DNA of 64,000 nt from an uncultured SAR86 cluster bacterium (GCA_902557965.1 CACECK010000001.1:22939-86938); one strand, 5' to 3'; shown: positions 3,963 to 16,982, numbered from the stretch's first letter. Translations and numbers: made by a program. Notes: generated by a model not told the origin, from the sequence alone.

Positions 3963-3993
3963 AGTTTTATTCTACAGTAAACTCAGTAAGCTT

Positions 3994-4926
3994 ATGAATA
4001 AAGCAAAATTTCTCTTACTTTTTTTATTTATGCAAGTTAATCATTTAAATAGTCAGCTAGCTATTGGGAGCATTGAAGAATTTTTTATCGAGCATAATGC
4101 ATACGATAGAAGAATTCAGATTTACTATCCTTTTAGTAATCAAATTGATAAAAATACAAAATTTGTAATCATGAATGATGCTGAAGAACTCTTTTTAGAA
4201 GAAGATACTTGGCGAGGAAGGTCATGGAGAATTGATAAGACTTTTGAGGATTTAGCAAAGACTAATAAAAGTTTAAACATAGTAGTCATTGCTGTAAATA
4301 GTGCTAAAAAGCCAGGAAAAATTTTAAATAGTACTCGGCGCTACGCTGATTATTTTCCAAATGAATCTATTCTCTACTTTCAAGATGGCTTAAAAAAAGC
4401 TATCTATTCCGCTTTTATTGACCAAGAGAATCTCAATTATCCTAAGTTCTTAGCATCATCTTTGATACCAGAAATAGAGAAGAAGCTAAAAATAAAATTA
4501 AACAAAAACAACCTCGGTGTTATTGGGTCTAGCATGGGCGGATTATCGGCATTGAATACAGTGCTTGAATATCCAGAACTTTTTGGCTTTGCTGGCTGCT
4601 TGTCAACTCATTGGATAGGCATAAAGCCTTTTGAATATCTTACATTGCCATTGAGAAAAAAAATAAGCGCCGATGAAGATACTGTTAACGCAATTAAAAG
4701 GTATGTAGAGATTAATATTCATAAACTAAAAGATCACAAAATATATTTTGATCATGGAACCCGAGGATTAGACTACTTATACAGAGATCCTCAAATCAAC
4801 ATAAATAAAGTTTTTGAAGAAAATGATATTTTATTTAAAAGTGAGGTTTATAAAGGTCATGAACATGATCCAGTGGATTTCGGTAAAAGATTTAAGTCTA
4901 TTATCCTATATATGCTTGAAAGCTGA
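3994..4926 (+). CDS. secreted alpha/beta hydrolase, putative esterase family
   Basis: GSSMGG nucleophile elbow. A signal-like N-terminus (MNKAKFLLLFLFMQVNHLNS) follows the internal ATG at 3994, which I prefer over the track start at 3955. Confidence 0.7.
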   Translation: MNKAKFLLLFLFMQVNHLNSQLAIGSIEEFFIEHNAYDRRIQIYYPFSNQIDKNTKFVIMNDAEELFLEEDTWRGRSWRIDKTFEDLAKTNKSLNIVVIAVNSAKKPGKILNSTRRYADYFPNESILYFQDGLKKAIYSAFIDQENLNYPKFLASSLIPEIEKKLKIKLNKNNLGVIGSSMGGLSALNTVLEYPELFGFAGCLSTHWIGIKPFEYLTLPLRKKISADEDTVNAIKRYVEINIHKLKDHKIYFDHGTRGLDYLYRDPQININKVFEENDILFKSEVYKGHEHDPVDFGKRFKSIILYMLES

Positions 4927-9944: not shown

Positions 9945-9951
9945 TTATTTT

Positions 9952-10320
9952 TTATTCAGTCACGATTCCAATTTTAAGTCTCGCAATGGCGTTTCTTTCA
10001 TCTGAATCATTTAATGACCATGAACTATTTAATAGTCTTGTTGAGTATTGCTTGTTATATAAGAAAGGCATTATTAATTGAAAAAGGCCAAATGTGACCA
10101 AAGAAAAAATTAAATGGAATACACCAATTGATATTTCTCCTCTAAAAATAGGAACAAAGAAGCCAAAGAAAAAATAAGTCCAAGAGTACCCAACAAAACA
10201 ATTTTTTTGAATACCTGATTCATTATGCTTAACTTTAATTTTCTTTTGCCATCCAAGGACAAGGGTGCCAATTATCATAGGAGAAAAAATAAGAAGTAAA
10301 ATTGAAAATGTTAATGCCAA
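9952..10320 (-). CDS. hypothetical membrane protein
   Basis: 122 aa with 3 predicted TM segments. No confident family. Confidence 0.6.
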   Translation of the reverse strand: MALTFSILLLIFSPMIIGTLVLGWQKKIKVKHNESGIQKNCFVGYSWTYFFFGFFVPIFRGEISIGVFHLIFSLVTFGLFQLIMPFLYNKQYSTRLLNSSWSLNDSDERNAIARLKIGIVTE

Positions 10321-10401
10321 TGCTCACTCCTGCAAGCTCTGCCTTTAAAATTATTACAATTTGTAAAAACTGAAACGACTGGTTCTTTTATATTCATAAT
10401 T

Positions 10402-10812
10402 TTATGACTCTTTATTTGGATCCCATATCACCAAGTTTTTGGTTTTTAGTCTATTTACAACTAACTTGTATCTTGATTGCTCTTCCTTCCATTCCTTTAA
10501 CCATGTTGCGCCGTCTCTCTCTGCATCAACAAAGACTGCATTGGTAAATGCTAAGGGTAATATTACTGCAACGTGAATCGCTATACTTGCCACGGTATTA
10601 TAGTTAAAGAGCCCTAGATAGTTTGCTGCCAGAAATCCAAAGAACACACTCCATATAGTAAACAAAACTAACATAAAGTATGTCTGTAAACTTGGATCAG
10701 GTATGTGCCTTAGTGGATTATATCTAACGTCCATTACTCTTCTCCAGCCACTTACAAGTTTCATAACAGTTCTTCTGAATAAACTAGGTTTTTTTGTATT
10801 TGGTTCAATCAT
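10402..10812 (-). CDS. hypothetical membrane protein
   Basis: 136 aa. AGGAGG lies 4 nt upstream of the ATG. Two central TM segments. Confidence 0.65.
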   Translation of the reverse strand: MIEPNTKKPSLFRRTVMKLVSGWRRVMDVRYNPLRHIPDPSLQTYFMLVLFTIWSVFFGFLAANYLGLFNYNTVASIAIHVAVILPLAFTNAVFVDAERDGATWLKEWKEEQSRYKLVVNRLKTKNLVIWDPNKES

Positions 10813-10909
10813 CTTTCCTCCTTTTAAATCTTATAAACTCTTTAATGACATGCATACCAACAGCCATCCATGTCACTATAACCAAACTCCAAAACAATAT
10901 CTCAATCAT
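10805..10909 (-). CDS. candidate 34-aa single-TM protein overlapping the start of the downstream gene
   Basis: Hand translation: MIEILFWSLVIVTWMAVGMHVIKEFIRFKRRKDD. Its stop TGA (10807-10805) overlaps the ATG at 10812 (gATGATTGA). Too short for the ORF track. Confidence 0.3.
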   Translation of the reverse strand: MIEILFWSLVIVTWMAVGMHVIKEFIRFKRRKDD

Positions 10910-10984: not shown

Positions 10985-11671
10985 TCATCGCCTTAATAGT
11001 ATAGCGATCCAACGACCAAGATTTAAAATATCAGCTAACGCTGCCGACACATAAGTGAGGGCTGCTGCTCTAAGAATGCGACTAACGGCTTTTTCGTTTG
11101 ACTGTGACACGTATTTCCCTTCCCTCAATATAGGAAGTGCTTTAGAAAAACTTGCATCAAATTCAATAGGTAAAGTTACCACATGAATCATCATGCGAGC
11201 TATAAAACCGGATAGCCCTAGAAAAAGTAATAAAGAAAATGGCATTGGATGTCGGGTAATAATACCAATCACTGGGGATAAAGAAATAATTGCTACACTC
11301 CAACGGGCCACTTTATCAACAACGGGAGCCATCTTTGTTCTGGTTGCCAGACGTTTATCACCTTGCTGATCCTGAATCGCATGTCCAACCTCATGAGCCG
11401 CGATAGCGATTGCGGTTAATGATTTAGATTCATAATGCTCTCGCAAAAGCCTAACTTTTTTTTCAATTGGATCATAGTGATCTCCTAGCTCAGTTACTTC
11501 GACCTCAACGTCTTTTAAAGAAAATCGCTCAATCAAGTGCTGTGCTAGCTCTCCGCCAGTACCTGGGATTTCAGGCTTTTCCAATGAATACCTCTTCATG
11601 ACCAACTTTACCCACAAAGATGGTCCAAATATTAGTGCTAAAACTACGAGCAAGCCCGCTGCTAAAAACAT
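10985..11671 (-). CDS. zinc metallopeptidase (membrane-associated, HExxH)
   Basis: 228 aa. HEVGHAIQ zinc motif. N-terminal TM and C-terminal TM segments, as in the putative neutral zinc metallopeptidase family. Confidence 0.8.
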   Translation of the reverse strand: MFLAAGLLVVLALIFGPSLWVKLVMKRYSLEKPEIPGTGGELAQHLIERFSLKDVEVEVTELGDHYDPIEKKVRLLREHYESKSLTAIAIAAHEVGHAIQDQQGDKRLATRTKMAPVVDKVARWSVAIISLSPVIGIITRHPMPFSLLLFLGLSGFIARMMIHVVTLPIEFDASFSKALPILREGKYVSQSNEKAVSRILRAAALTYVSAALADILNLGRWIAILLRR

Positions 11672-11691
11672 ATTTTATCCTCTTAAAAAAG

Positions 11692-11847
11692 TTATTCTTC
11701 TGATTTTATCTTTCTTAGATTCATCAAGGAAGCTGTTGCCAATATGACAAGCAATGAAATACCAAACTGCTTTTCATCAACAATTGAAACAACAAGGATT
11801 GCTGCTGCCCACATTATCGATTGAGAAATTAACAACTTTTTATTCAT
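11692..11847 (-). CDS. candidate 51-aa membrane protein
   Basis: Hand translation: MNKKLLISQSIMWAAAILVVSIVDEKQFGISLLVILATASLMNLRKIKSEE. Its ATG overlaps the stop of the upstream ORF (ATGA). Confidence 0.4.
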   Translation of the reverse strand: MNKKLLISQSIMWAAAILVVSIVDEKQFGISLLVILATASLMNLRKIKSEE

Positions 11848-12044
11848 TTATAATATTTTAATAAAACGTAATTGGCTATTAAGTCTAAAAAAATAAACCC
11901 TCCTAGTATCAACCACATAAATTCACCGCTATATACAGTAATTGTTAAAACTACAATAATTCCTATGACAAAAGCACGGATCCAAGAGTATTTTTTATAA
12001 AGTTTACTTTGAGTCCAAAAAAATTCTTTTAAAAAAATCGGCAT
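11844..12044 (-). CDS. 66-aa membrane protein
   Basis: Track ORF with two TM segments. It starts immediately after the repeat copy at 12051-12107. Confidence 0.5.
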   Translation of the reverse strand: MPIFLKEFFWTQSKLYKKYSWIRAFVIGIIVVLTITVYSGEFMWLILGGFIFLDLIANYVLLKYYK

Positions 12045-12050
12045 TATTTA

Positions 12051-12107
12051 TTTAAATCTCTGTTTTCTTCTACTCCACCGCCACTGATTAGTTTTAAAGA
12101 GTGATTT
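12051..12107 (-). repeat. glmS-3'-end-like repeat, copy 4 (core 12070-12087)
   Basis: The core ctactccaccgccactga reads tca gtg gcg gtg gag tag (SVAVE-stop) on the minus strand. Class-A flank aaatctctgttttctt at 12054-12069. Confidence 0.6.
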
Positions 12108-12480
12108 ACATATCTAGCAATGGATTTCTTCCCCATTTATTTTCATCTTCTTTTGCTGGAAGCATTAGTATAATTGAAATTACGAATAGCCCAATAATTG
12201 TAATGTAGGATAATTGCCACCATCCAGAAATACCTCTATCTTGAAGTCTTCTTGAGGTTATTGATGTAGCCGGAATAATAACTACGATTTGAAAAAGCGC
12301 TGAAAGTGGTCCATAACCAAATTCTTCACTAAATATTCCTGCCGGTGTTTCAAGCAATGCTAAAAAGAATGATATCAGAGATATAGAAAGTGTAAAATAC
12401 CAAAACTCGCTTCTGCATGCTCTTCCGCTAAAATTTTTCCAGTTTATAAAACCTGAAATAAATGATTCTTTAATATTCAT
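12106..12480 (-). CDS. DUF805 family inner-membrane protein (paralog 2)
   Basis: GRACRSEFWYF and SRRLQDRGISGWW motifs. The ATG at 12480 overlaps the upstream stop (ATGA), so I prefer it over the track start at 12498. Confidence 0.85.
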   Translation of the reverse strand: MNIKESFISGFINWKNFSGRACRSEFWYFTLSISLISFFLALLETPAGIFSEEFGYGPLSALFQIVVIIPATSITSRRLQDRGISGWWQLSYITIIGLFVISIILMLPAKEDENKWGRNPLLDM

Positions 12481-12902
12481 AGTGGATTTCTTCCCCATTT
12501 ATTTTCATCTTCCTTTGATGGCAGCATTAGAAAAATGAAAATTACAAAAATCCCAATAATAGTGAAATAAGATAATTGCCACCATCCTGAGATTCCTCTG
12601 TCTTGAAGTCTTCTGGAGGTTACAGATATAGAAGGAAATAAAATAATTGCATTAAATATTAAGGTTAATGGTCCAATAGGATTTCGTACACTTTGCCATT
12701 CTTTATCTCTAAACTCTATTCCATAGGAAAGTATAGTTGGAAAACCCTCAATGGATGCATAAAGAATTGCTTCGATAAAACTAATCAAAAAACCTGCAAT
12801 AAATAATGCTAAGCAAAAATACCAGAACTCACTTCTACGTGCCCTTCCACTGAAATTATTCCAATTATTAAAAACTGATATGCATGCCTCTTTTATGCTC
12901 AT
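12477..12902 (-). CDS. DUF805 family inner-membrane protein (paralog 1)
   Basis: GRARRSEFWYF and SRRLQDRGISGWW. The C-terminal ~55 aa are near-identical to the downstream paralog. Confidence 0.85.
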   Translation of the reverse strand: MSIKEACISVFNNWNNFSGRARRSEFWYFCLALFIAGFLISFIEAILYASIEGFPTILSYGIEFRDKEWQSVRNPIGPLTLIFNAIILFPSISVTSRRLQDRGISGWWQLSYFTIIGIFVIFIFLMLPSKEDENKWGRNPL

Positions 12903-13006
12903 AATTTTTTTAATTATTTATTGTGAAATCAAATTATATACTTTAGAAAAACACATATTGGTTTTTTAAGGTTCTAATCTATATAAGATTTGTATATTTT
13001 TAAAAG

Positions 13007-13099
13007 TTAGAAATCACTGTTCGAAACTACTCCACCGTCATTGAGTGTTTTCGTTTGCAGAATAAATTTCTTGTAGAAATTTATATATTTTTTGTCCAT
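13007..13099 (-). CDS. candidate 30-aa ORF embedded in the long repeat (MDKKYINFYKKFILQTKTLNDGGVVSNSDF)
   Basis: Conserved against the ORF at 14646-14744. Most nucleotide differences in the first 13 codons fall at third positions. No SD. Confidence 0.25.
   Translation of the reverse strand: MDKKYINFYKKFILQTKTLNDGGVVSNSDF
13011..13099 (-). repeat. glmS-3'-end-like repeat, long copy (core 13027-13044)
   Basis: 89 bp, with 74/89 identity (hand alignment) to 14656-14744. The core reads tca atg acg gtg gag tag (SMTVE-stop) on the minus strand. Confidence 0.8.
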
Positions 13100-13189
13100 A
13101 TAAAAAATTATACAATGATTTTAATTGTAACCTTTACTTCTCATATAATTAATGATAAGTTTACGTTACATTTTAGTGAGGAGAAGAAA

Positions 13190-13585
13190 ATGGGTCTTGA
13201 AATATTAATACCGGTATTAGGAATAATGACAGGAATAATAGTGCCTGTATCTGTCTTTGTTTGGTTATATTTTGAGAGCAAGGATAAAAACAAAACAATA
13301 TTAGAGATATCGAAAAATATTGATGATCCTTCAAAAATTGAAGACTTAATAAACATGCTTGACGATAGAAAAAAAGAACCAATTGATTATAGAAGAACTG
13401 GGGTTGTTACATTATTTACTGGTGTGGGTCTGTTTCTATTTGGTGTATTTTTTCTTGGATCAATCTTAAAAGGGGTTGGTGCATTGGTTGCTGCTATTGG
13501 TTTAGGACAAATAATTGCTGGTTATCTTTATCCGAACACAAGTGAAGAATTAACAAATGCTGTTGAAGATTTTGAAAAAAAATAG
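13190..13585 (+). CDS. 131-aa membrane protein
   Basis: Internal ATG preceded by GAGGAG (gtgaggagaagaaaATG). One N-terminal and two C-terminal TM segments. Ends in NAVEDFEKK. The track start at 13055 runs through the repeat and is unlikely. Confidence 0.6.
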   Translation: MGLEILIPVLGIMTGIIVPVSVFVWLYFESKDKNKTILEISKNIDDPSKIEDLINMLDDRKKEPIDYRRTGVVTLFTGVGLFLFGVFFLGSILKGVGALVAAIGLGQIIAGYLYPNTSEELTNAVEDFEKK

Positions 13586-13592
13586 GAGGGGG

Positions 13593-13802
13593 ATGATGAT
13601 CTATAAAAGAAATTTGGTTGTACATGTGGGTCTTTTAATAAGTTTACTAGGCATTGCCTTATATGATCCTTTGGGATCGATATATGAAGGTGCAGGATTG
13701 ATAGTTTTAGTAATTGGGTTAATTTGTTTGTTTGTTGGTAATAAAAATACAACTGAGTACGAATCAATTAATAGAGCAGTTGAAAACTTCGAAAAGAAAT
13801 AA
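13593..13802 (+). CDS. 69-aa two-TM membrane protein
   Basis: ATG preceded by AGGAGGGGG. Ends in RAVENFEKK, the same tail as the upstream protein. Confidence 0.6.
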   Translation: MMIYKRNLVVHVGLLISLLGIALYDPLGSIYEGAGLIVLVIGLICLFVGNKNTTEYESINRAVENFEKK

Positions 13803-13823
13803 GTTTGAGGAAATGAAATAACT

Positions 13824-14249
13824 ATGAATTTTTACATACGTTTTTTAATGTTATTTTTATGTGGAGTCGTGCAAGTCTTTTTTGCAATTCATCTTTTATT
13901 GGATTTAGGTATATTTCAACTTCCATCTGATCTAATGTTCATACCTGGGGTACTTATAATTTTAACTTCGATCGTTTTGGTATTATCTTATTACTATGGT
14001 AACGAAGAGATAAATAATAAACTTTATGACGAATATGCAGCAGATAGATTTTATAGATTAGGGAATTTAGGATACGCACTTAATGGCATAGGTTTATTTA
14101 TAATATTTAGCATTCAAGATTACCAAAACTGGGATATCCAAATCGCATCAAATATGATTTTACAAATTGCTGCTTATGCTTGGTTAGTTTTTGGAGTACT
14201 TTTAACATGGTTTGCGATTGGAGATTATCAAGAGTCCCAGCATGGGTAA
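13824..14249 (+). CDS. 141-aa four-TM membrane protein
   Basis: Track ORF with hydrophobic segments. Overlaps the start of the XRE gene by 8 nt. Confidence 0.6.
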   Translation: MNFYIRFLMLFLCGVVQVFFAIHLLLDLGIFQLPSDLMFIPGVLIILTSIVLVLSYYYGNEEINNKLYDEYAADRFYRLGNLGYALNGIGLFIIFSIQDYQNWDIQIASNMILQIAAYAWLVFGVLLTWFAIGDYQESQHG

Positions 14250-14460
14250 AAATCATTACAAACTTCTAAACAATCTTGAGCAATACAGAAAAAAAGCAGG
14301 TCTGACTCAACAAGAACTTTCAAATAACGCAGATGTTTCAAGGAAAAGTATCAATGCTATTGAAAATGGGATTTACGTGCCCTCAACTGTTCTAGCATTA
14401 AAAATATCAAAGATTTTTAATTGTAAAGTTGAAGATTTATTTGAACTGCCTAAGAATTAA
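14242..14460 (+). CDS. XRE family helix-turn-helix transcriptional regulator (72 aa)
   Basis: GLTQQELSNNADVSRKSINAIENGIYVPSTVLALKISKIFNCKVEDLF is a classic short Cro/C1-type HTH. This type is commonly encoded next to small membrane proteins. Confidence 0.85.
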   Translation: MGKNHYKLLNNLEQYRKKAGLTQQELSNNADVSRKSINAIENGIYVPSTVLALKISKIFNCKVEDLFELPKN

Positions 14461-14510
14461 TTCTGCAAACGAAACTATTCAACCGTCACTGAGTAGATTT
14501 GTTTGGTGCA
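14449..14510 (-). repeat. glmS-3'-end-like repeat, copy 2 (core 14475-14492) with class-B flank
   Basis: The core ctattcaaccgtcactga reads tca gtg acg gtt gaa tag (SVTVE-stop). The flank cctaagaattaattc (14449-14463) matches cctatgaattaattc next to the genuine glmS end. Confidence 0.6.
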
Positions 14511-14512
14511 TT

Positions 14513-14641
14513 TTATTCTTCCTTGTAATCGTCTGCGAGAATCCCCTTTTCTTTTAAAGTCTTTGTAAGTTTTTCTAGACGCACAAGTGCAACCACTCCG
14601 ACCATTCCAAACACAAAACCCATTACTGCCAACCCTTCCAT
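14513..14641 (-). CDS. candidate 42-aa single-TM protein
   Basis: Hand translation: MEGLAVMGFVFGMVGVVALVRLEKLTKTLKEKGILADDYKEE. AAGGA lies 9 nt upstream of the ATG. It fills the 0.2-kb cassette between two repeat copies. Confidence 0.45.
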   Translation of the reverse strand: MEGLAVMGFVFGMVGVVALVRLEKLTKTLKEKGILADDYKEE

Positions 14642-14645
14642 AATT

Positions 14646-14744
14646 CTATCCTTTTAAATCACTGTTCCAACTTACTCCACCGTCACCGAGTGTTTTCGAG
14701 TGACGAATAAATTTGTTATAAAAAGTAATATATTTTTTATCCAT
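14646..14744 (-). CDS. candidate 32-aa ORF embedded in the long repeat (MDKKYITFYNKFIRHSKTLGDGGVSWNSDLKG)
   Basis: Paralogous to the ORF at 13007-13099. Its ATG overlaps the stop of the 130-aa ORF (gATGGATAA). Confidence 0.25.
   Translation of the reverse strand: MDKKYITFYNKFIRHSKTLGDGGVSWNSDLKG
14656..14744 (-). repeat. glmS-3'-end-like repeat, long copy (core 14672-14689)
   Basis: 89 bp, with 74/89 identity to 13011-13099. The core reads tcg gtg acg gtg gag taa (SVTVE-stop). Confidence 0.8.
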
Positions 14745-15129
14745 CTAATTTATTTCTATTTTTCGGCAAGCAGAATATTAAAGTGATGATAAATGAAATT
14801 ATGGAAATTGGCATAGTAAATGCTAAGACATACATGGTTGTCTCAACCAATTGTGATGCTGTTCCATCAATCACATCATCAAATCTCCATGCCCAAGATC
14901 TATAGTGTAGACAGAAAGCAAACCCCCAAGCACCGCACAGAATACCTATAGCACTTGAGTCCTTGATAGTTAAATAACCTGCGGTTATTAGTAAGGCAAC
15001 GGCAATTAAGTCAGGTAAATATCCAGTAATTGTTTGTCCAAACTTTATCGTAAATAAGGTCTCGAGTGTAAAGTGAATAAGGGCAATAAAAATAGTAAAA
15101 ATAGAAAATTTATAAAGAAATGCTTTCAT
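14737..15129 (-). CDS. 130-aa four-TM membrane protein
   Basis: Track ORF. It is the first cassette downstream of glmS, and its start lies 27 nt after the glmS stop. Confidence 0.6.
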   Translation of the reverse strand: MKAFLYKFSIFTIFIALIHFTLETLFTIKFGQTITGYLPDLIAVALLITAGYLTIKDSSAIGILCGAWGFAFCLHYRSWAWRFDDVIDGTASQLVETTMYVLAFTMPISIISFIITLIFCLPKNRNKLDG

Positions 15130-15155
15130 ATCCTATGAATTAATTCGTCACCGAA

Positions 15156-16982
15156 TTATTCCACAGTGACTGATTTAGCTAAATTTCTTGGCTGATCAAT
15201 ATCAGTGCCTCTAAGAAGAGCTACCTCATATGAAAGAATTTGAAGGGGTATCGTATAAATTATTGGCGTTAGTAGAAAGTCGCATTTTGGCATATTTATC
15301 AGTTTTCCTGATTTAAGATCCATGGATATTGATGGATCTGAAAAGACATATAGAGTTCCACCTCTGGCTTTTACTTCCTCTAAATTTGAAACAAGTTTTT
15401 CAGCTATCTCACTTTCTGGAGCTAATGCTATTACAGGCATATTCTCATCTATTAATGCCAGTGGACCATGTTTTAATTCTCCAGCTGGATATGCTTCAGC
15501 ATGAATATAGGAAATCTCTTTCAGCTTTAATGCCCCCTCTTTTGCAATTGGATAAAAAATACCCCTTCCAAGGAATAAAGCATTATCTTTGTTAGCTATT
15601 TCTGGTGCTATTTCCAGTATCGTATCTTTAATTTTTAGAGTTTCTTCAATAGTATCTGGCAATGATCTCATTGCGGTTATAACTCTTGTTCTTAGTTTGG
15701 GGTTCATGTTTCTACTTTTTGCAAGAGATAAAGCTAGAAGCATTAGTGCAGCTAATTGCGTTGTGAATGCCTTTGTAGAAGCAACACCGATTTCAGGACC
15801 AGCATTCGTGAAAATTGAATAGTCTGATTCTCTTGCCAGTGAACTGGTAGGCACATTACAGATTGTTAAAGTTGATAAGTAATTTTTTTCTTTTGCGTAT
15901 CTTAATGCTGCAAGAGTGTCAGCTGTTTCACCTGATTGAGAAATGGTTATTAGCAAGGAGTCTTCATCGACATGAGGGTTTCTATAGCGATATTCAGACG
16001 CATAATCTATTTGAGTCGGTAGTTCTGAGATAGAAGAAAACCAATTTGCGGCAACTCTGCCTGCGTGCAAACTTGTTCCACAGGCTACGACTTGGATCCT
16101 TTTTACATTCTTAAAAATATCAGAAGAGCCAAGGCCAAAAATATTATCTAGTACATCGTCACCCCCGACCCTGCCATCAATAGTATTTAATATTGCTTGC
16201 GGCTGTTCATAAATTTCTTTCTCCATGAAATGCTTAAATTTACCTTTTGAGATTGCCTGGTCAGATATGTCTATCTTAGTGATCTCTCTTGAAGCTTCTT
16301 TTTTATTGCTGTCGTAAATAGTAAAGCCCTCTGCAGAAATTTGTGCAACATCACCATCTTCAAGAAAAATAAACTCATTGGTTAGCTGTCCAATTGCTAA
16401 AGGGTCTGATGCGGCAAGAAACTCATCTGTTCCAATCCCAATCAACAGCGGTGATTTATTTCTTGCAAGTACAATATTTGAATTGTCCTCTTTATCGACT
16501 ACTGCAATGGCATATGCGCCATCAAGTTTTTCTTTTGTGAGGTACATGGAATCAATTATTGAGTTACCTTTGCTAAGAAAAAAATCTAACATGTGAGCTA
16601 TTAGCTCAGAGTCTGTCTGGGATGTAAAAGAGTAGCCTTCAGTCTTCAAATAATCTTTAAGCTCTATATAGTTTTCAATAATTCCATTGTGAACGATATA
16701 AACCCTGTCTTTTGATTGGTGTGGGTGGGCATTTTCTTCAGACGGTTCCCCATGAGTTGCCCATCTAGTGTGAGCTATGCCGAGCTTACTTTTTGGCTTC
16801 TCTTGAATCATCTTATCCTCAAGTAACTTTACTTTTCCTAAAGTTCTGAGATGGGCTATCTGTTTATTTTGATGAAGCGCTATACCCGCAGAGTCGTATC
16901 CTCGATACTCCATTTTATGAAGTCCTTGAACAAGAAGCTTTCCAACATTTCTATTTGAAGCAGCAGCTATAATTCCACACAT
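15156..16982 (-). CDS. glmS: glutamine--fructose-6-phosphate aminotransferase
   Basis: 608 aa. N-terminal MCGI (catalytic Cys2), SIS domains, C-terminal AKSVTVE. Confidence 0.97.
   Translation of the reverse strand: MCGIIAAASNRNVGKLLVQGLHKMEYRGYDSAGIALHQNKQIAHLRTLGKVKLLEDKMIQEKPKSKLGIAHTRWATHGEPSEENAHPHQSKDRVYIVHNGIIENYIELKDYLKTEGYSFTSQTDSELIAHMLDFFLSKGNSIIDSMYLTKEKLDGAYAIAVVDKEDNSNIVLARNKSPLLIGIGTDEFLAASDPLAIGQLTNEFIFLEDGDVAQISAEGFTIYDSNKKEASREITKIDISDQAISKGKFKHFMEKEIYEQPQAILNTIDGRVGGDDVLDNIFGLGSSDIFKNVKRIQVVACGTSLHAGRVAANWFSSISELPTQIDYASEYRYRNPHVDEDSLLITISQSGETADTLAALRYAKEKNYLSTLTICNVPTSSLARESDYSIFTNAGPEIGVASTKAFTTQLAALMLLALSLAKSRNMNPKLRTRVITAMRSLPDTIEETLKIKDTILEIAPEIANKDNALFLGRGIFYPIAKEGALKLKEISYIHAEAYPAGELKHGPLALIDENMPVIALAPESEIAEKLVSNLEEVKARGGTLYVFSDPSISMDLKSGKLINMPKCDFLLTPIIYTIPLQILSYEVALLRGTDIDQPRNLAKSVTVE

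What the first reader, a model, noticed from the sequence alone, without database searches (positions are those of the whole stretch)
12054..15146. Two alternating flank classes around the cores, one with a perfect GAATTAATTC palindrome, suggest two element types or nested insertions
On the glmS-distal side of the cores there are two alternative flanks.

Class A follows the cores at 14672, 13027 and 12070:
- aaatcactgttccaac (14656-14671)
- aaatcactgttcgaaa (13011-13026)
- aaatctctgttttctt (12054-12069)

Class B follows the genuine glmS end and the 14475 core: cctatgaattaattc (15132-15146) and cctaagaattaattc (14449-14463). These are 14/15 identical, contain the palindrome GAATTAATTC, and sit 9-11 nt from the core.

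Two blocks start with a class-B flank and end with the 89-bp long repeat: 15155 down to 14690, and 14474 down to 13045. They therefore share both ends. Their cargo is unrelated and oppositely oriented, with one minus-strand ORF in one and four plus-strand ORFs in the other. That is what two members of one mobile element family would look like.

The overall pattern is [core-B-element-long repeat-core-A-cargo] twice, then [core-A-cargo].

On the minus strand the first ORF of four blocks starts just downstream of the core stop: 27 nt after the genuine glmS stop, about 30 nt at 14672 and about 25 nt at 12070. The fourth starts about 125 nt downstream, at 13027. This resembles promoterless cassettes read through from glmS.
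Basis: seen in the sequence. Interest (0 to 1): 0.6.

Follow-up and report, generated by a model that had tools for sequence, protein, structure and literature searches.

The report
Serine-recombinase gene cassettes stacked behind glmS
The two "flank classes" are the left and right halves of recombinase docking sites that bound small mobile gene cassettes, which large serine recombinases have stacked one after another into the last codons of glmS in the abundant marine bacterium SAR86. The result resembles an integron but uses a different enzyme, and I found no description of it in the searchable literature.

Summary
Downstream of glmS (15156-16982, minus strand) lie four degenerate copies of its last 18 nt (SVTVE-stop). 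They bound four blocks of 466, 179, 1430 and 939 bp.

The class-B flank mirrors the part of the "long repeat" next to the core.

In 30 SAR86 genomes and about 120 metagenome contigs, such arms pair within a cassette, not across a junction. The symmetry is centred on the invariant AC of the Thr codon. Variable core positions before AC travel with the upstream arm, and those after it with the downstream arm.

This is the architecture of a large serine recombinase (LSR) att site. Elements carrying an LSR sit directly after glmS in four genomes. A free 9.5-kb circular element carries the joined site.

Arm classes map to LSR lineages: class A to P0141, class B to P0121/P0122, and class G to P0130.

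The window itself has no LSR, so its cassettes are non-autonomous. The insertions are serial, not nested. The closest analogue is the staphylococcal SCC. I rate it a new variant of a known kind.

The parts
15156..16982 (-). glmS, the target gene. Its last 18 nt (15156-15173, TCAGTCACTGTGGAATAA) form the glmS-proximal att core. The inferred crossover dinucleotide AC is at 15166-15167.
   Evidence: ORF list. Homologous glmS found in 30 SAR86 loci at 73-94% identity. Coordinates rechecked.
14690..15155 (-). Cassette E1 (466 bp). L arm of class B1 at 15137-15155 (TTCGGTGACGAATTAATTC). A 130-aa membrane ORF at 14737-15129. R arm of class B1 at 14690-14714 (AAATTTATTCGTCACTCGAAAACAC), with a conserved R-end extension to 14748.
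   Evidence: Arms are inverted repeats, 13/14 in the best window. The same 466-bp cassette occurs in L127, L190, L191 and L213 with different neighbours. Pfam gave no hit for the ORF.
14672..14689 (-). Core 1 (TCGGTGACGGTGGAGTAA), a degenerate copy of the glmS 3' end encoding SVTVE-stop.
14493..14671 (-). Cassette E2 (179 bp). L arm of class A at 14656-14671 (GTTGGAACAGTGATTT). A 42-aa ORF at 14513-14641. R arm of class G at 14493-14514 (AAAATGCACCAAACAAATCTAC). The arms are mismatched, so this is a hybrid cassette.
   Evidence: Own-arm complementarity is only 7/14. L011 carries the same ORF with matched class-A arms. The R arm plus half-core is identical to the attP left half of the circular P0130 element.
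14475..14492 (-). Core 2 (TCAGTGACGGTTGAATAG).
13045..14474 (-). Cassette E3 (1430 bp). L arm of class B2 at 14454-14474 (TTTCGTTTGCAGAATTAATTC). R arm of class B2 at 13045-13069, with the R-end extension to 13103. The cargo is on the + strand: DUF6249 at 13190-13585, two small membrane ORFs at 13557-13802 and 13824-14249, and an HTH_3 regulator at 14212-14460 whose stop codon lies inside GAATTAATTC.
   Evidence: Arms 14/14 and 16/17 complementary (I3, 22, 58). Pfam hits for DUF6249 and HTH_3. Shorter versions of the cassette occur in L010, L017, L026 and L085, always in this orientation.
13027..13044 (-). Core 3 (TCAATGACGGTGGAGTAG).
12088..13026 (-). Cassette E4 (939 bp). L arm of class A at 13011-13026 (TTTCGAACAGTGATTT). 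Two tandem DUF805 genes at 12477-12902 and 12106-12498. R arm of class A at 12088-12107 (AAATCACTCTTTAAAACTAA).
   Evidence: Inverted repeat I25. Arms 11/14. Pfam DUF805. A homologous cassette occurs in L014.
12070..12087 (-). Core 4 (TCAGTGGCGGTGGAGTAG), the most distal core. Its crossover dinucleotide is mutated from AC to GC, so it is probably inactive.
11672..12069 (-). Terminal block. Class-A-like L arm at 12054-12069 (AAGAAAACAGAGATTT), then a 66-aa ORF (11844-12044) and a 51-aa ORF (11692-11847). No R arm or core precedes the conserved flank.
   Evidence: The 51-aa ORF recurs just before the Zn-peptidase gene in L002, L003, L005 and L007, and as cargo of a class-B2 cassette in L226.
10985..11671 (-). 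Zn_peptidase_2 gene, the conserved chromosomal flank that closes the array.
   Evidence: Pfam 3e-60. Present in 17+ SAR86 loci at 0.4 to 7.3 kb from the glmS stop.

Best explanation
The flanks are half-sites of large-serine-recombinase (LSR) attachment sites.

Each cassette is a unit of the form [core positions 9-18 + L arm ... cargo ... R arm + core positions 1-8]. When circularised it carries a dyad-symmetric attP of about 58 bp. The two arms are inverted repeats lying 11-28 nt either side of an AC dinucleotide. The inner 18 nt mimic the last five codons and the stop codon of glmS.

An LSR exchanges strands at AC between this attP and the glmS 3' end. The incoming element supplies a new ...VE-stop tail, so GlmS stays intact. 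The old tail is pushed downstream as a "core".

The new glmS-proximal junction keeps the glmS half-site plus an element-type half-site. It can therefore be used again, which stacks cassettes in tandem.

Classes A, B and G are the recognition arms of different LSR lineages. The window holds no LSR, so its four cassettes are non-autonomous and would need a recombinase supplied in trans.

Shown: the architecture, the crossover interval, all four att forms, and the link between LSRs, arm classes and glmS. Inferred: catalysis by these LSRs, trans-mobilisation, and expression by read-through from glmS.
For: 1. Arms pair within cassettes. The best 14-nt inverted-repeat score averages 10.25 for a cassette's own arms, against 8.46 for random pairs and 8.38 across junctions. 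56 of 115 cassettes have at least 12/17 complementary arm positions, against 7% in the null.

2. The dyad is centred exactly on AC. Complementarity at positions 11-28 is 0.576 in register, against about 0.30 when shifted by 1-2 nt.

3. Crossover mapping on 132 junctions. Core positions 3 and 6 co-vary with the upstream R arm (0.68 and 0.42, baseline 0.32 and 0.27). Positions 9, 12, 15 and 18 co-vary with the downstream L arm (0.49 to 0.83, baseline 0.30 to 0.50). The reverse associations are absent. The window's E1 cassette always carries TGTGGAATAA with its L arm.

4. LSR-bearing elements bounded by the same cores and arms lie directly after glmS in L022, L081, L085 and L219. Pfam finds Resolvase, Recombinase and Zn_ribbon domains. 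The nearest solved structures are the SPbeta, TP901-1 and phiC31 integrases.

5. A joined attP sits inside a 9.5-kb circular LSR+Rep element, recovered as circularly permuted contigs from different samples.

6. Empty versus occupied site: L028 against L027.

7. Arm class follows LSR lineage: A with P0141, G with P0130, B1 with P0121, B2 with P0122, D with P0001/P0008, K with P0043.

8. Within class B, the variable hexamer of the R arm matches the L arm in 36 of 37 cassettes.
Against: - No LSR is encoded in the 64-kb window. Only 1 of 30 SAR86 loci fetched through glmS had one.
- Trans-mobilisation of recombinase-less cassettes is inferred from their varied contexts. Homologous recombination between arrays could also shuffle them.
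- E1's arms are 2 nt out of register, E2's arms are of different classes, and core 4 has lost the AC. Part of this array is therefore probably fossil.
- Classical phage LSRs do not reuse a hybrid site as a target. Reuse is argued here only by analogy with SCC.
- No biochemical or transcript data were available.
Confidence: 0.8

Rival explanations
1. An integron-like system. A tyrosine recombinase of the IntI type would insert cassettes at an attI next to glmS, and the flanks would be attC-type hairpin sites.
For: The layout looks like a cassette array: short, mostly single-gene units, co-oriented in 39 of 45 cases, with the ORF starting just after the boundary. Arm sequence varies while symmetry is kept.
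Against: - Arms are complementary within a cassette, across its whole cargo, not across the junction where an attC would sit.
- The exchange maps to the centre of the dyad, not to one edge of it.
- No XerD-like tyrosine recombinase was detected by tblastn in the window or in 80 loci. That test is weak.
- LSRs, not tyrosine recombinases, sit at the ends of the autonomous members.
Confidence: 0.04
2. Tn7-like or CRISPR-associated transposons using the classical attTn7 site downstream of glmS, with the flanks as transposon ends.
For: glmS is the classical Tn7 target (general knowledge). The elements have terminal inverted repeats.
Against: - Insertion occurs inside the coding region, at the Thr codon, not downstream of the stop.
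- The boundaries are 18-nt degenerate copies of the gene end, not 5-bp target duplications.
- Array ORFs are small membrane proteins, DUF805, DUF6249 and an HTH regulator, with no Tns-type proteins.
- The autonomous members encode an LSR plus a rolling-circle Rep.
Confidence: 0.02
3. The arrays were built by LSR elements, but the small recombinase-less blocks are not mobile units. They would be deletion remnants of larger elements, shuffled among genomes by homologous recombination between the repeated cores and arms.
For: - Class-D cassettes keep R ends that resemble the 3' end of the LSR gene.
- L141 and L226 show fusions of LSR units with cassette bodies.
- E2 is a hybrid and core 4 is mutated.
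- LSRs are rare near glmS.
Against: - Cassettes keep matched arms in exact register, even at 70-250 bp.
- The same cargo exists with either B1 or B2 arms, and both ends have changed together.
- Core halves stay linked to their arm, as expected for excision and reintegration at AC.
- Cores of 18 nt with variable third positions are poor substrates for homologous recombination.
Confidence: 0.13
4. The inverted arms act at the RNA level, for example as processing or terminator stems that bracket each cassette within a glmS read-through transcript.
For: Compensatory variation of the arms. Cassettes are co-oriented with glmS.
Against: - The arms lie up to 9 kb apart in LSR elements.
- The same arms flank the cassettes whose cargo runs in the opposite direction.
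- Variation comes in discrete classes that track recombinase lineage, rather than as free base-pair swaps.
- The terminator scan was at chance level and Rfam gave no hit.
Confidence: 0.01

Closest known systems
Staphylococcal cassette chromosome (SCC/SCCmec, CcrAB/CcrC) and the Enterococcus cassette chromosome
   Same: LSR-driven insertion into the 3' end of a conserved housekeeping gene, with the reading frame preserved. The att sites are two degenerate inverted half-sites around a central dinucleotide, and one half-site overlaps the gene. Tandem composite arrays occur, as do recombinase-less elements bounded by att sites. The SCC features are taken from 10.64898/2026.03.31.715619.
   Different: - The target is glmS, not rlmH, and the central dinucleotide is AC, not GA.
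- The host is a streamlined Gram-negative marine lineage.
- The LSRs are only distantly related to characterised ones.
- Cassettes are tiny (about 70 bp to 2 kb, usually one ORF), numerous and mostly co-oriented.
- Many arm classes are tied to many LSR lineages.
- The autonomous members are 6-9.5 kb circles with a rolling-circle Rep.
Integron gene-cassette arrays
   Same: A fixed chromosomal platform that accumulates short, mostly single-gene, co-oriented and probably promoterless cassettes. These appear to be drawn from a shared environmental pool. Recombination sites vary in sequence but keep their symmetry.
   Different: The recombinase is a serine, not a tyrosine, enzyme. The site is split evenly between the two cassette ends, with exchange at its centre. 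There is no attC hairpin at junctions. The platform is the coding end of glmS, and the recombinase is carried on mobile members rather than fixed beside the array.
Tycheposon islands of Prochlorococcus (10.1101/2020.12.28.424599)
   Same: Streamlined ocean bacteria. Site-specific elements with integration and replication modules pile up in tandem at one site, leaving partial copies of the target and building a hypervariable island. A minority of those elements carry LSRs.
   Different: Tycheposons target seven tRNA genes, mostly through tyrosine recombinases. Here no tRNA is involved, the target is a protein-coding gene end, and most units are recombinase-less micro-cassettes.
Marine virion-encapsidated integrative mobile elements (VEIMEs) with serine recombinases (PMC9618062)
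   Same: Small marine elements that encode a serine recombinase plus replication genes. The 6-9.5 kb LSR+Rep elements found here may belong to that world.
   Different: The main text of that paper mentions neither a glmS target nor SAR86. No capsid or terminase genes were seen in the elements examined here. Membership was not tested.

Membership tests
Large-serine-recombinase (serine integrase) integrative elements | The recombinase has Resolvase catalytic, Recombinase and zinc-ribbon/coiled-coil domains. | tested here: met
   L022 LSR: Resolvase 6e-24, Recombinase 1e-11, Zn_ribbon 3e-4. L141 LSR: Resolvase 6e-14, Recombinase 2e-13. PDB hits to the SPbeta, TP901-1 and phiC31 integrases. This holds for related loci only; no LSR lies in the window.
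Large-serine-recombinase (serine integrase) integrative elements | An att site of about 40-60 bp with imperfect dyad symmetry about a central non-palindromic dinucleotide. | tested here: met
   Symmetry is centred on AC: 0.576 in register against about 0.30 when shifted. A perfect example is L094, with 17-bp arms 10 nt either side of AC.
Large-serine-recombinase (serine integrase) integrative elements | Strand exchange at the central 2 bp, giving hybrid attL and attR sites. | tested here: met
   Linkage switches between core positions 6 and 9. The same R arm plus TCCGTTAC is followed by four different right halves in L085-L088. This is a sequence inference, not biochemistry.
Large-serine-recombinase (serine integrase) integrative elements | All four site forms exist: attP, attB, attL and attR. 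| tested here: met
   attP lies within the circular element L220-L225. The empty attB is seen in L028 against the occupied L027. attL and attR occur throughout the arrays.
Large-serine-recombinase (serine integrase) integrative elements | Demonstrated catalytic integration and excision. | not testable with these tools
   This needs recombination assays.
SCC-type cassette chromosome | Insertion into the 3' end of a conserved gene with the ORF preserved, tandem composites, and recombinase-less members. | tested here: met
   Every core encodes SVTVE-stop. Arrays hold 1 to 10+ units. Most units lack an LSR.
SCC-type cassette chromosome | Ccr-family recombinases and the rlmH (orfX) target with a GA crossover. 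| tested here: not met
   The target is glmS and the crossover dinucleotide is AC. Relatedness to Ccr proteins was not tested. This is an analogue of SCC, not a member.
Integron | An IntI tyrosine recombinase beside attI. | tested here: not met
   tblastn with XerD found nothing in the window or in 80 loci. That is a weak test. The genes next to the array are glmS and Zn_peptidase_2.
Integron | attC hairpin sites at cassette junctions, with exchange at the R' core. | tested here: not met
   Complementarity across junctions equals the random level, 8.38 against 8.46. The exchange is at the centre of the dyad.
Tn7-like transposon at attTn7 | Tns proteins, insertion downstream of the glmS stop, and a 5-bp target duplication. 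| tested here: not met
   Insertion is within the Thr codon, and the repeats are 18-nt gene-end mimics. There are no Tns-type ORFs in the array.
Tycheposon | A tRNA-gene target with partial tRNA repeats, and a lineage-specific tyrosine recombinase. | tested here: not met
   No tRNA in the window. The recombinases are LSRs.

The most novel reading that the evidence does not exclude
SAR86 and related marine gammaproteobacteria may run an integron analogue built on serine recombinases. A population-wide pool of hundreds of single-gene micro-cassettes would each carry a split attP that mimics the glmS C-terminus. Several co-evolving LSR lineages, carried on small circular Rep-encoding elements, would capture, stack and exchange these cassettes in trans. 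The cassettes would be expressed by read-through from glmS. The arm classes would then be a specificity code matching cassettes to recombinases.
Probability: 0.5. Interest if true: 0.8.

Novelty: new variant of a known kind. Interest (0 to 1): 0.68.

Why it matters
[quoted passage not shown] This locus gives a concrete, testable mechanism for a hypervariable region in that lineage. It would also explain why many SAR86 assemblies break right after glmS.

The finding extends the SCC principle (a serine recombinase, the end of a housekeeping gene, and recombinase-less cassettes) to a Gram-negative marine clade and to integron-sized units.

It also provides sets of natural LSRs paired with their attP and attB sites. 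These all target the same conserved gene end but use different arm specificities, which is of interest for genome-engineering tools.

Full-text searches turned up no paper that links SAR86, glmS and serine recombinases.

Tried and rejected
- Promoter and terminator consensus scan of 11600-15400: counts at chance level, uninformative.
- Rfam at gathering thresholds and the tRNA scan of the whole window: no hits.
- Viral-contig scan with the L022 LSR: no relatives.
This is only a weak exclusion of tyrosine recombinases.
- I first suspected that the roughly 1-kb class-D cassettes encode the integrase. They instead encode secreted or repeat proteins.
- I considered a hairpin or attC-like reading of the arms. 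I rejected it because the pairing is within cassettes and the variation is class-wise, tracking LSR lineage.
- I considered that E3 arose by inversion between cores. I rejected it because the same cassette has the same orientation in L010, L017, L026 and L085.
- L141 first looked like a class-B LSR element but proved to be a fusion with a cassette body. L227 and L226 then gave the cleaner link between this LSR lineage and class B.
- Literature searches for SAR86+glmS, SAR86+serine recombinase, serine recombinase+glmS+attB, and the SAR86 isolate paper found nothing relevant.

Full report
**Observation**

glmS lies at 15156-16982 on the minus strand. glmU and the atp operon lie upstream. Reading downstream on the minus strand, the last 18 nt of glmS (TCAGTCACTGTGGAATAA, encoding S-V-T-V-E-stop) recur in degenerate form at 14672-14689, 14475-14492, 13027-13044 and 12070-12087. 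A 19-nt consensus finds these four copies, against 0 matches in shuffled sequence.

GAATTAATTC occurs three times in the window against 0.23 expected. The ORF-start distances are also correct.

The two ends of each block are inverted repeats of each other.
- E3 (13045-14474) starts with TTTCGTTTGCAGAATTAATT and ends with AAATTTATTCTGCAAACGAAAAC (repeat I3).
- E1 (14690-15155) starts with TTCGGTGACGAATTAATTC and ends with AAATTTATTCGTCACTCGAAAAC.
- E4 (12088-13026) starts with TTTCGAACAGTGATTT and ends with AAATCACTCTTTAAAAC (repeat I25).

The class-B flank is therefore the mirror image of the long-repeat segment next to the core. The "long repeat" itself is a composite. It consists of the R end of a class-B cassette, a core, and the L arm of the following class-A cassette.

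**Organism and generality**

A scan with the GlmS protein returned 30 SAR86 loci at 73-94% identity. Nearly all carry arrays of 1 to 10 or more glmS-end cores downstream of glmS. Each unit has the form [core] L arm ... R arm [core], and the arms fall into many sequence classes.

The Zn_peptidase_2 gene (window 10985-11671) is the conserved distal flank. Its distance from glmS ranges from 0.4 to 7.3 kb among genomes. L028 is an empty site, and L027 carries one 2-kb cassette at the same place.

**Geometry of the site**

Across about 115-124 putative cassettes, arm complementarity is high within a cassette and at background level across junctions or between random pairs. 56 of 115 cassettes have at least 12/17 complementary arm positions, against 7% in the null.

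The symmetry is centred exactly on the invariant AC of the Thr codon. Complementarity is 0.576 in register and about 0.30 when shifted by 1-2 nt. The inner positions 5, 6 and 8 are also mirrored. A joined site therefore reads, for example, aaatcactgtttaaac-TTAATCAGTG-AC-TGTAGAGTAA-gtttaaacagtgattt.

**Crossover mapping**

I used 132 junctions. The variable third-codon positions before AC (3 and 6) co-vary with the upstream R arm. Those after AC (9, 12, 15 and 18) co-vary with the downstream L arm. The reverse associations are absent.

One R end (P0039) is followed by four different right halves in four contigs. The window's E1 cassette always carries TGTGGAATAA with its L arm and TC(A/G)GTG-AC with its R arm in five contexts.

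Downstream cores still encode SVTVE-stop despite synonymous variation. This is expected if every core has served as the glmS tail at some time. I infer that selection acts on the GlmS C-terminus.

**The recombinase**

No recombinase lies in the window. In L022, however, a 6-kb unit with matched arms carries a 551-aa large serine recombinase at its R end, together with a rolling-circle-type Rep. Elements carrying homologous or related LSRs lie directly after glmS in L081, L085 and L219.

There are two LSR families, about 28% identical to each other, and each splits into lineages. Their nearest solved relatives are the SPbeta, TP901-1 and phiC31 integrases.

Two 9.4-kb contigs from different samples are circular permutations of one molecule. 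That molecule carries an intact joined site: AAATGCACCAAACAAATCTAC-TCAGTG-AC-TGTAGAGTAG-ATTTGAATGGTGCATT. Its left half is identical to the R end of window block E2.

**Arm classes follow LSR lineage**

| Arm class | LSR lineage | Evidence |
|---|---|---|
| A | P0141 | L219, |
| G | P0130 | |
| B1 | P0121 | L227, |
| B2 | P0122 | L226, |
| D | P0001 / P0008 | |
| K | P0043 | L094, |

Classes D, K and H each also have recombinase-less cassettes with the same arms.

A metagenome scan with the class-B R end found about 70 sites followed by a glmS-type core. The variable hexamer of the R arm matches the L arm in 36 of 37 cassettes (TGCAAA with TTTGCA/C; GTCACT with GGTGAC). At least eight different cargos share these ends.

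I read the covariation as both half-sites having to fit the same recombinase dimer. I do not read it as base pairing.

**Interpretation for the window**

The array holds four serially inserted, non-autonomous cassettes:
- E1 has class-B1 arms.
- E2 has a class-A L arm and a class-G R arm, so it is a hybrid.
- E3 has class-B2 arms.
- E4 has class-A arms.

A terminal block with a class-A-like L arm follows. The newest cassette is presumably the one nearest glmS, because all four mapped LSR elements are glmS-proximal.

Parts of the array look fossil. E1's arms are 2 nt out of register, E2's arms do not match, and core 4 has GC instead of AC.

Cassette ORFs are co-oriented with glmS in 39 of 45 non-redundant cases (roughly p = 3e-7, ignoring relatedness among cassettes). 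They usually start 18-42 nt after the core. That fits read-through expression but does not prove it. The class-B HTH cassette is the consistent exception, and it carries its own regulator.

**Comparison and novelty**

The nearest known system is SCC/SCCmec. It shares LSRs, insertion into a gene 3' end, half-sites around a central dinucleotide with one half-site inside the gene, tandem composites, and recombinase-less members. The present system differs in target gene, host, unit size and the multiplicity of specificities, so it is an analogue and not a member.

Integron, Tn7 and tycheposon membership each fail on defining features.

No paper in the searchable library links SAR86, glmS and serine recombinases. 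I rate the finding a new variant of a known kind.

Noticed in passing
window 14690-14748 and 13045-13103 (minus strand); also L141 4720-4775 and L226 about 3975-4030: About 35 nt lying inward of (cargo-side of) the R arm are conserved in all class-B elements, including the LSR-bearing ones. The sequence is ATG(G/A)AYAAAAAATATAT..TTYTAYAASAAATTTATTC. It can be read as a mini-ORF, M(D/N)KKYIxFYxKFI..., that runs across the att core, and the copies differ by several synonymous changes. Its function is unknown; it could be an extended recombinase or accessory-factor site, a promoter, or a leader peptide.
   Followed up: partly
window 12070-12087: The most distal core reads TCAGTGGCGGTGGAGTAG. The inferred crossover dinucleotide AC has become GC, so this junction is probably no longer recombinogenic.
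   Followed up: partly
window 9950-10820; L021 16775-17206: Variable content continues beyond the Zn-peptidase gene. A DUF805 N-terminal fragment at 10313-10418 is 71% identical to the starts of the two E4 genes. The 136-aa ORF at 10402-10812 is present in only 4 loci and is followed by a degenerate core in L021. The peptidase gene may itself sit inside an older, decayed array.
   Followed up: partly
L097 and L098, 10001-11910: An LSR 35% identical to the L022 enzyme lies in a 2.58-Mb genome that is not SAR86-like and carries metal-resistance and NACHT cargo. It is followed by an SVTVE-stop core, a class-A-like arm and a 42-aa MEGL... ORF that is 69-71% identical to the window's E2 ORF. The system therefore seems to extend outside SAR86. 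Whether glmS lies upstream there was not checked.
   Followed up: no
L094 1-16130: A tandem array of three related 7.1-kb LSR+Rep elements. Their junctions have perfect 17-bp arms 10 nt either side of AC.
   Followed up: partly
L001, L006, L013, L016, L018, L020, L029, L030 (contig ends): Many SAR86 assemblies break between 78 bp and a few kb after glmS. This is consistent with the array being a hotspot for assembly breaks.
   Followed up: no
L009 13752-14608; L023 19319-20802: The HTH-DUF6249 gene module of cassette E3 also occurs beyond the Zn-peptidase gene in some genomes, without recognisable class-B arms. The relation between the chromosomal copy and the cassette copy, and which came first, is open.
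   Followed up: no
L025 15401-16498 and 13994-14131: Some cassette ORFs run into the downstream core and use its SVT(V/E)E-stop as their own C-terminus.
   Followed up: no
L096 5212-6344; L219 9408-10004; L220 2175-2771: Small serine recombinases (about 195-198 aa, Resolvase + HTH_7) accompany family-2 LSR elements. One also occurs just inside a class-B L arm, in the cassette that follows a family-1 (P0043) LSR element in L096. Their role is unknown; they could be invertases, resolvases or directionality factors.
   Followed up: no
window 12106-12902: Cassette E4 carries two tandem DUF805 paralogues, 84% identical over 155 nt near their 3' ends, with overlapping stop and start regions.
   Followed up: no
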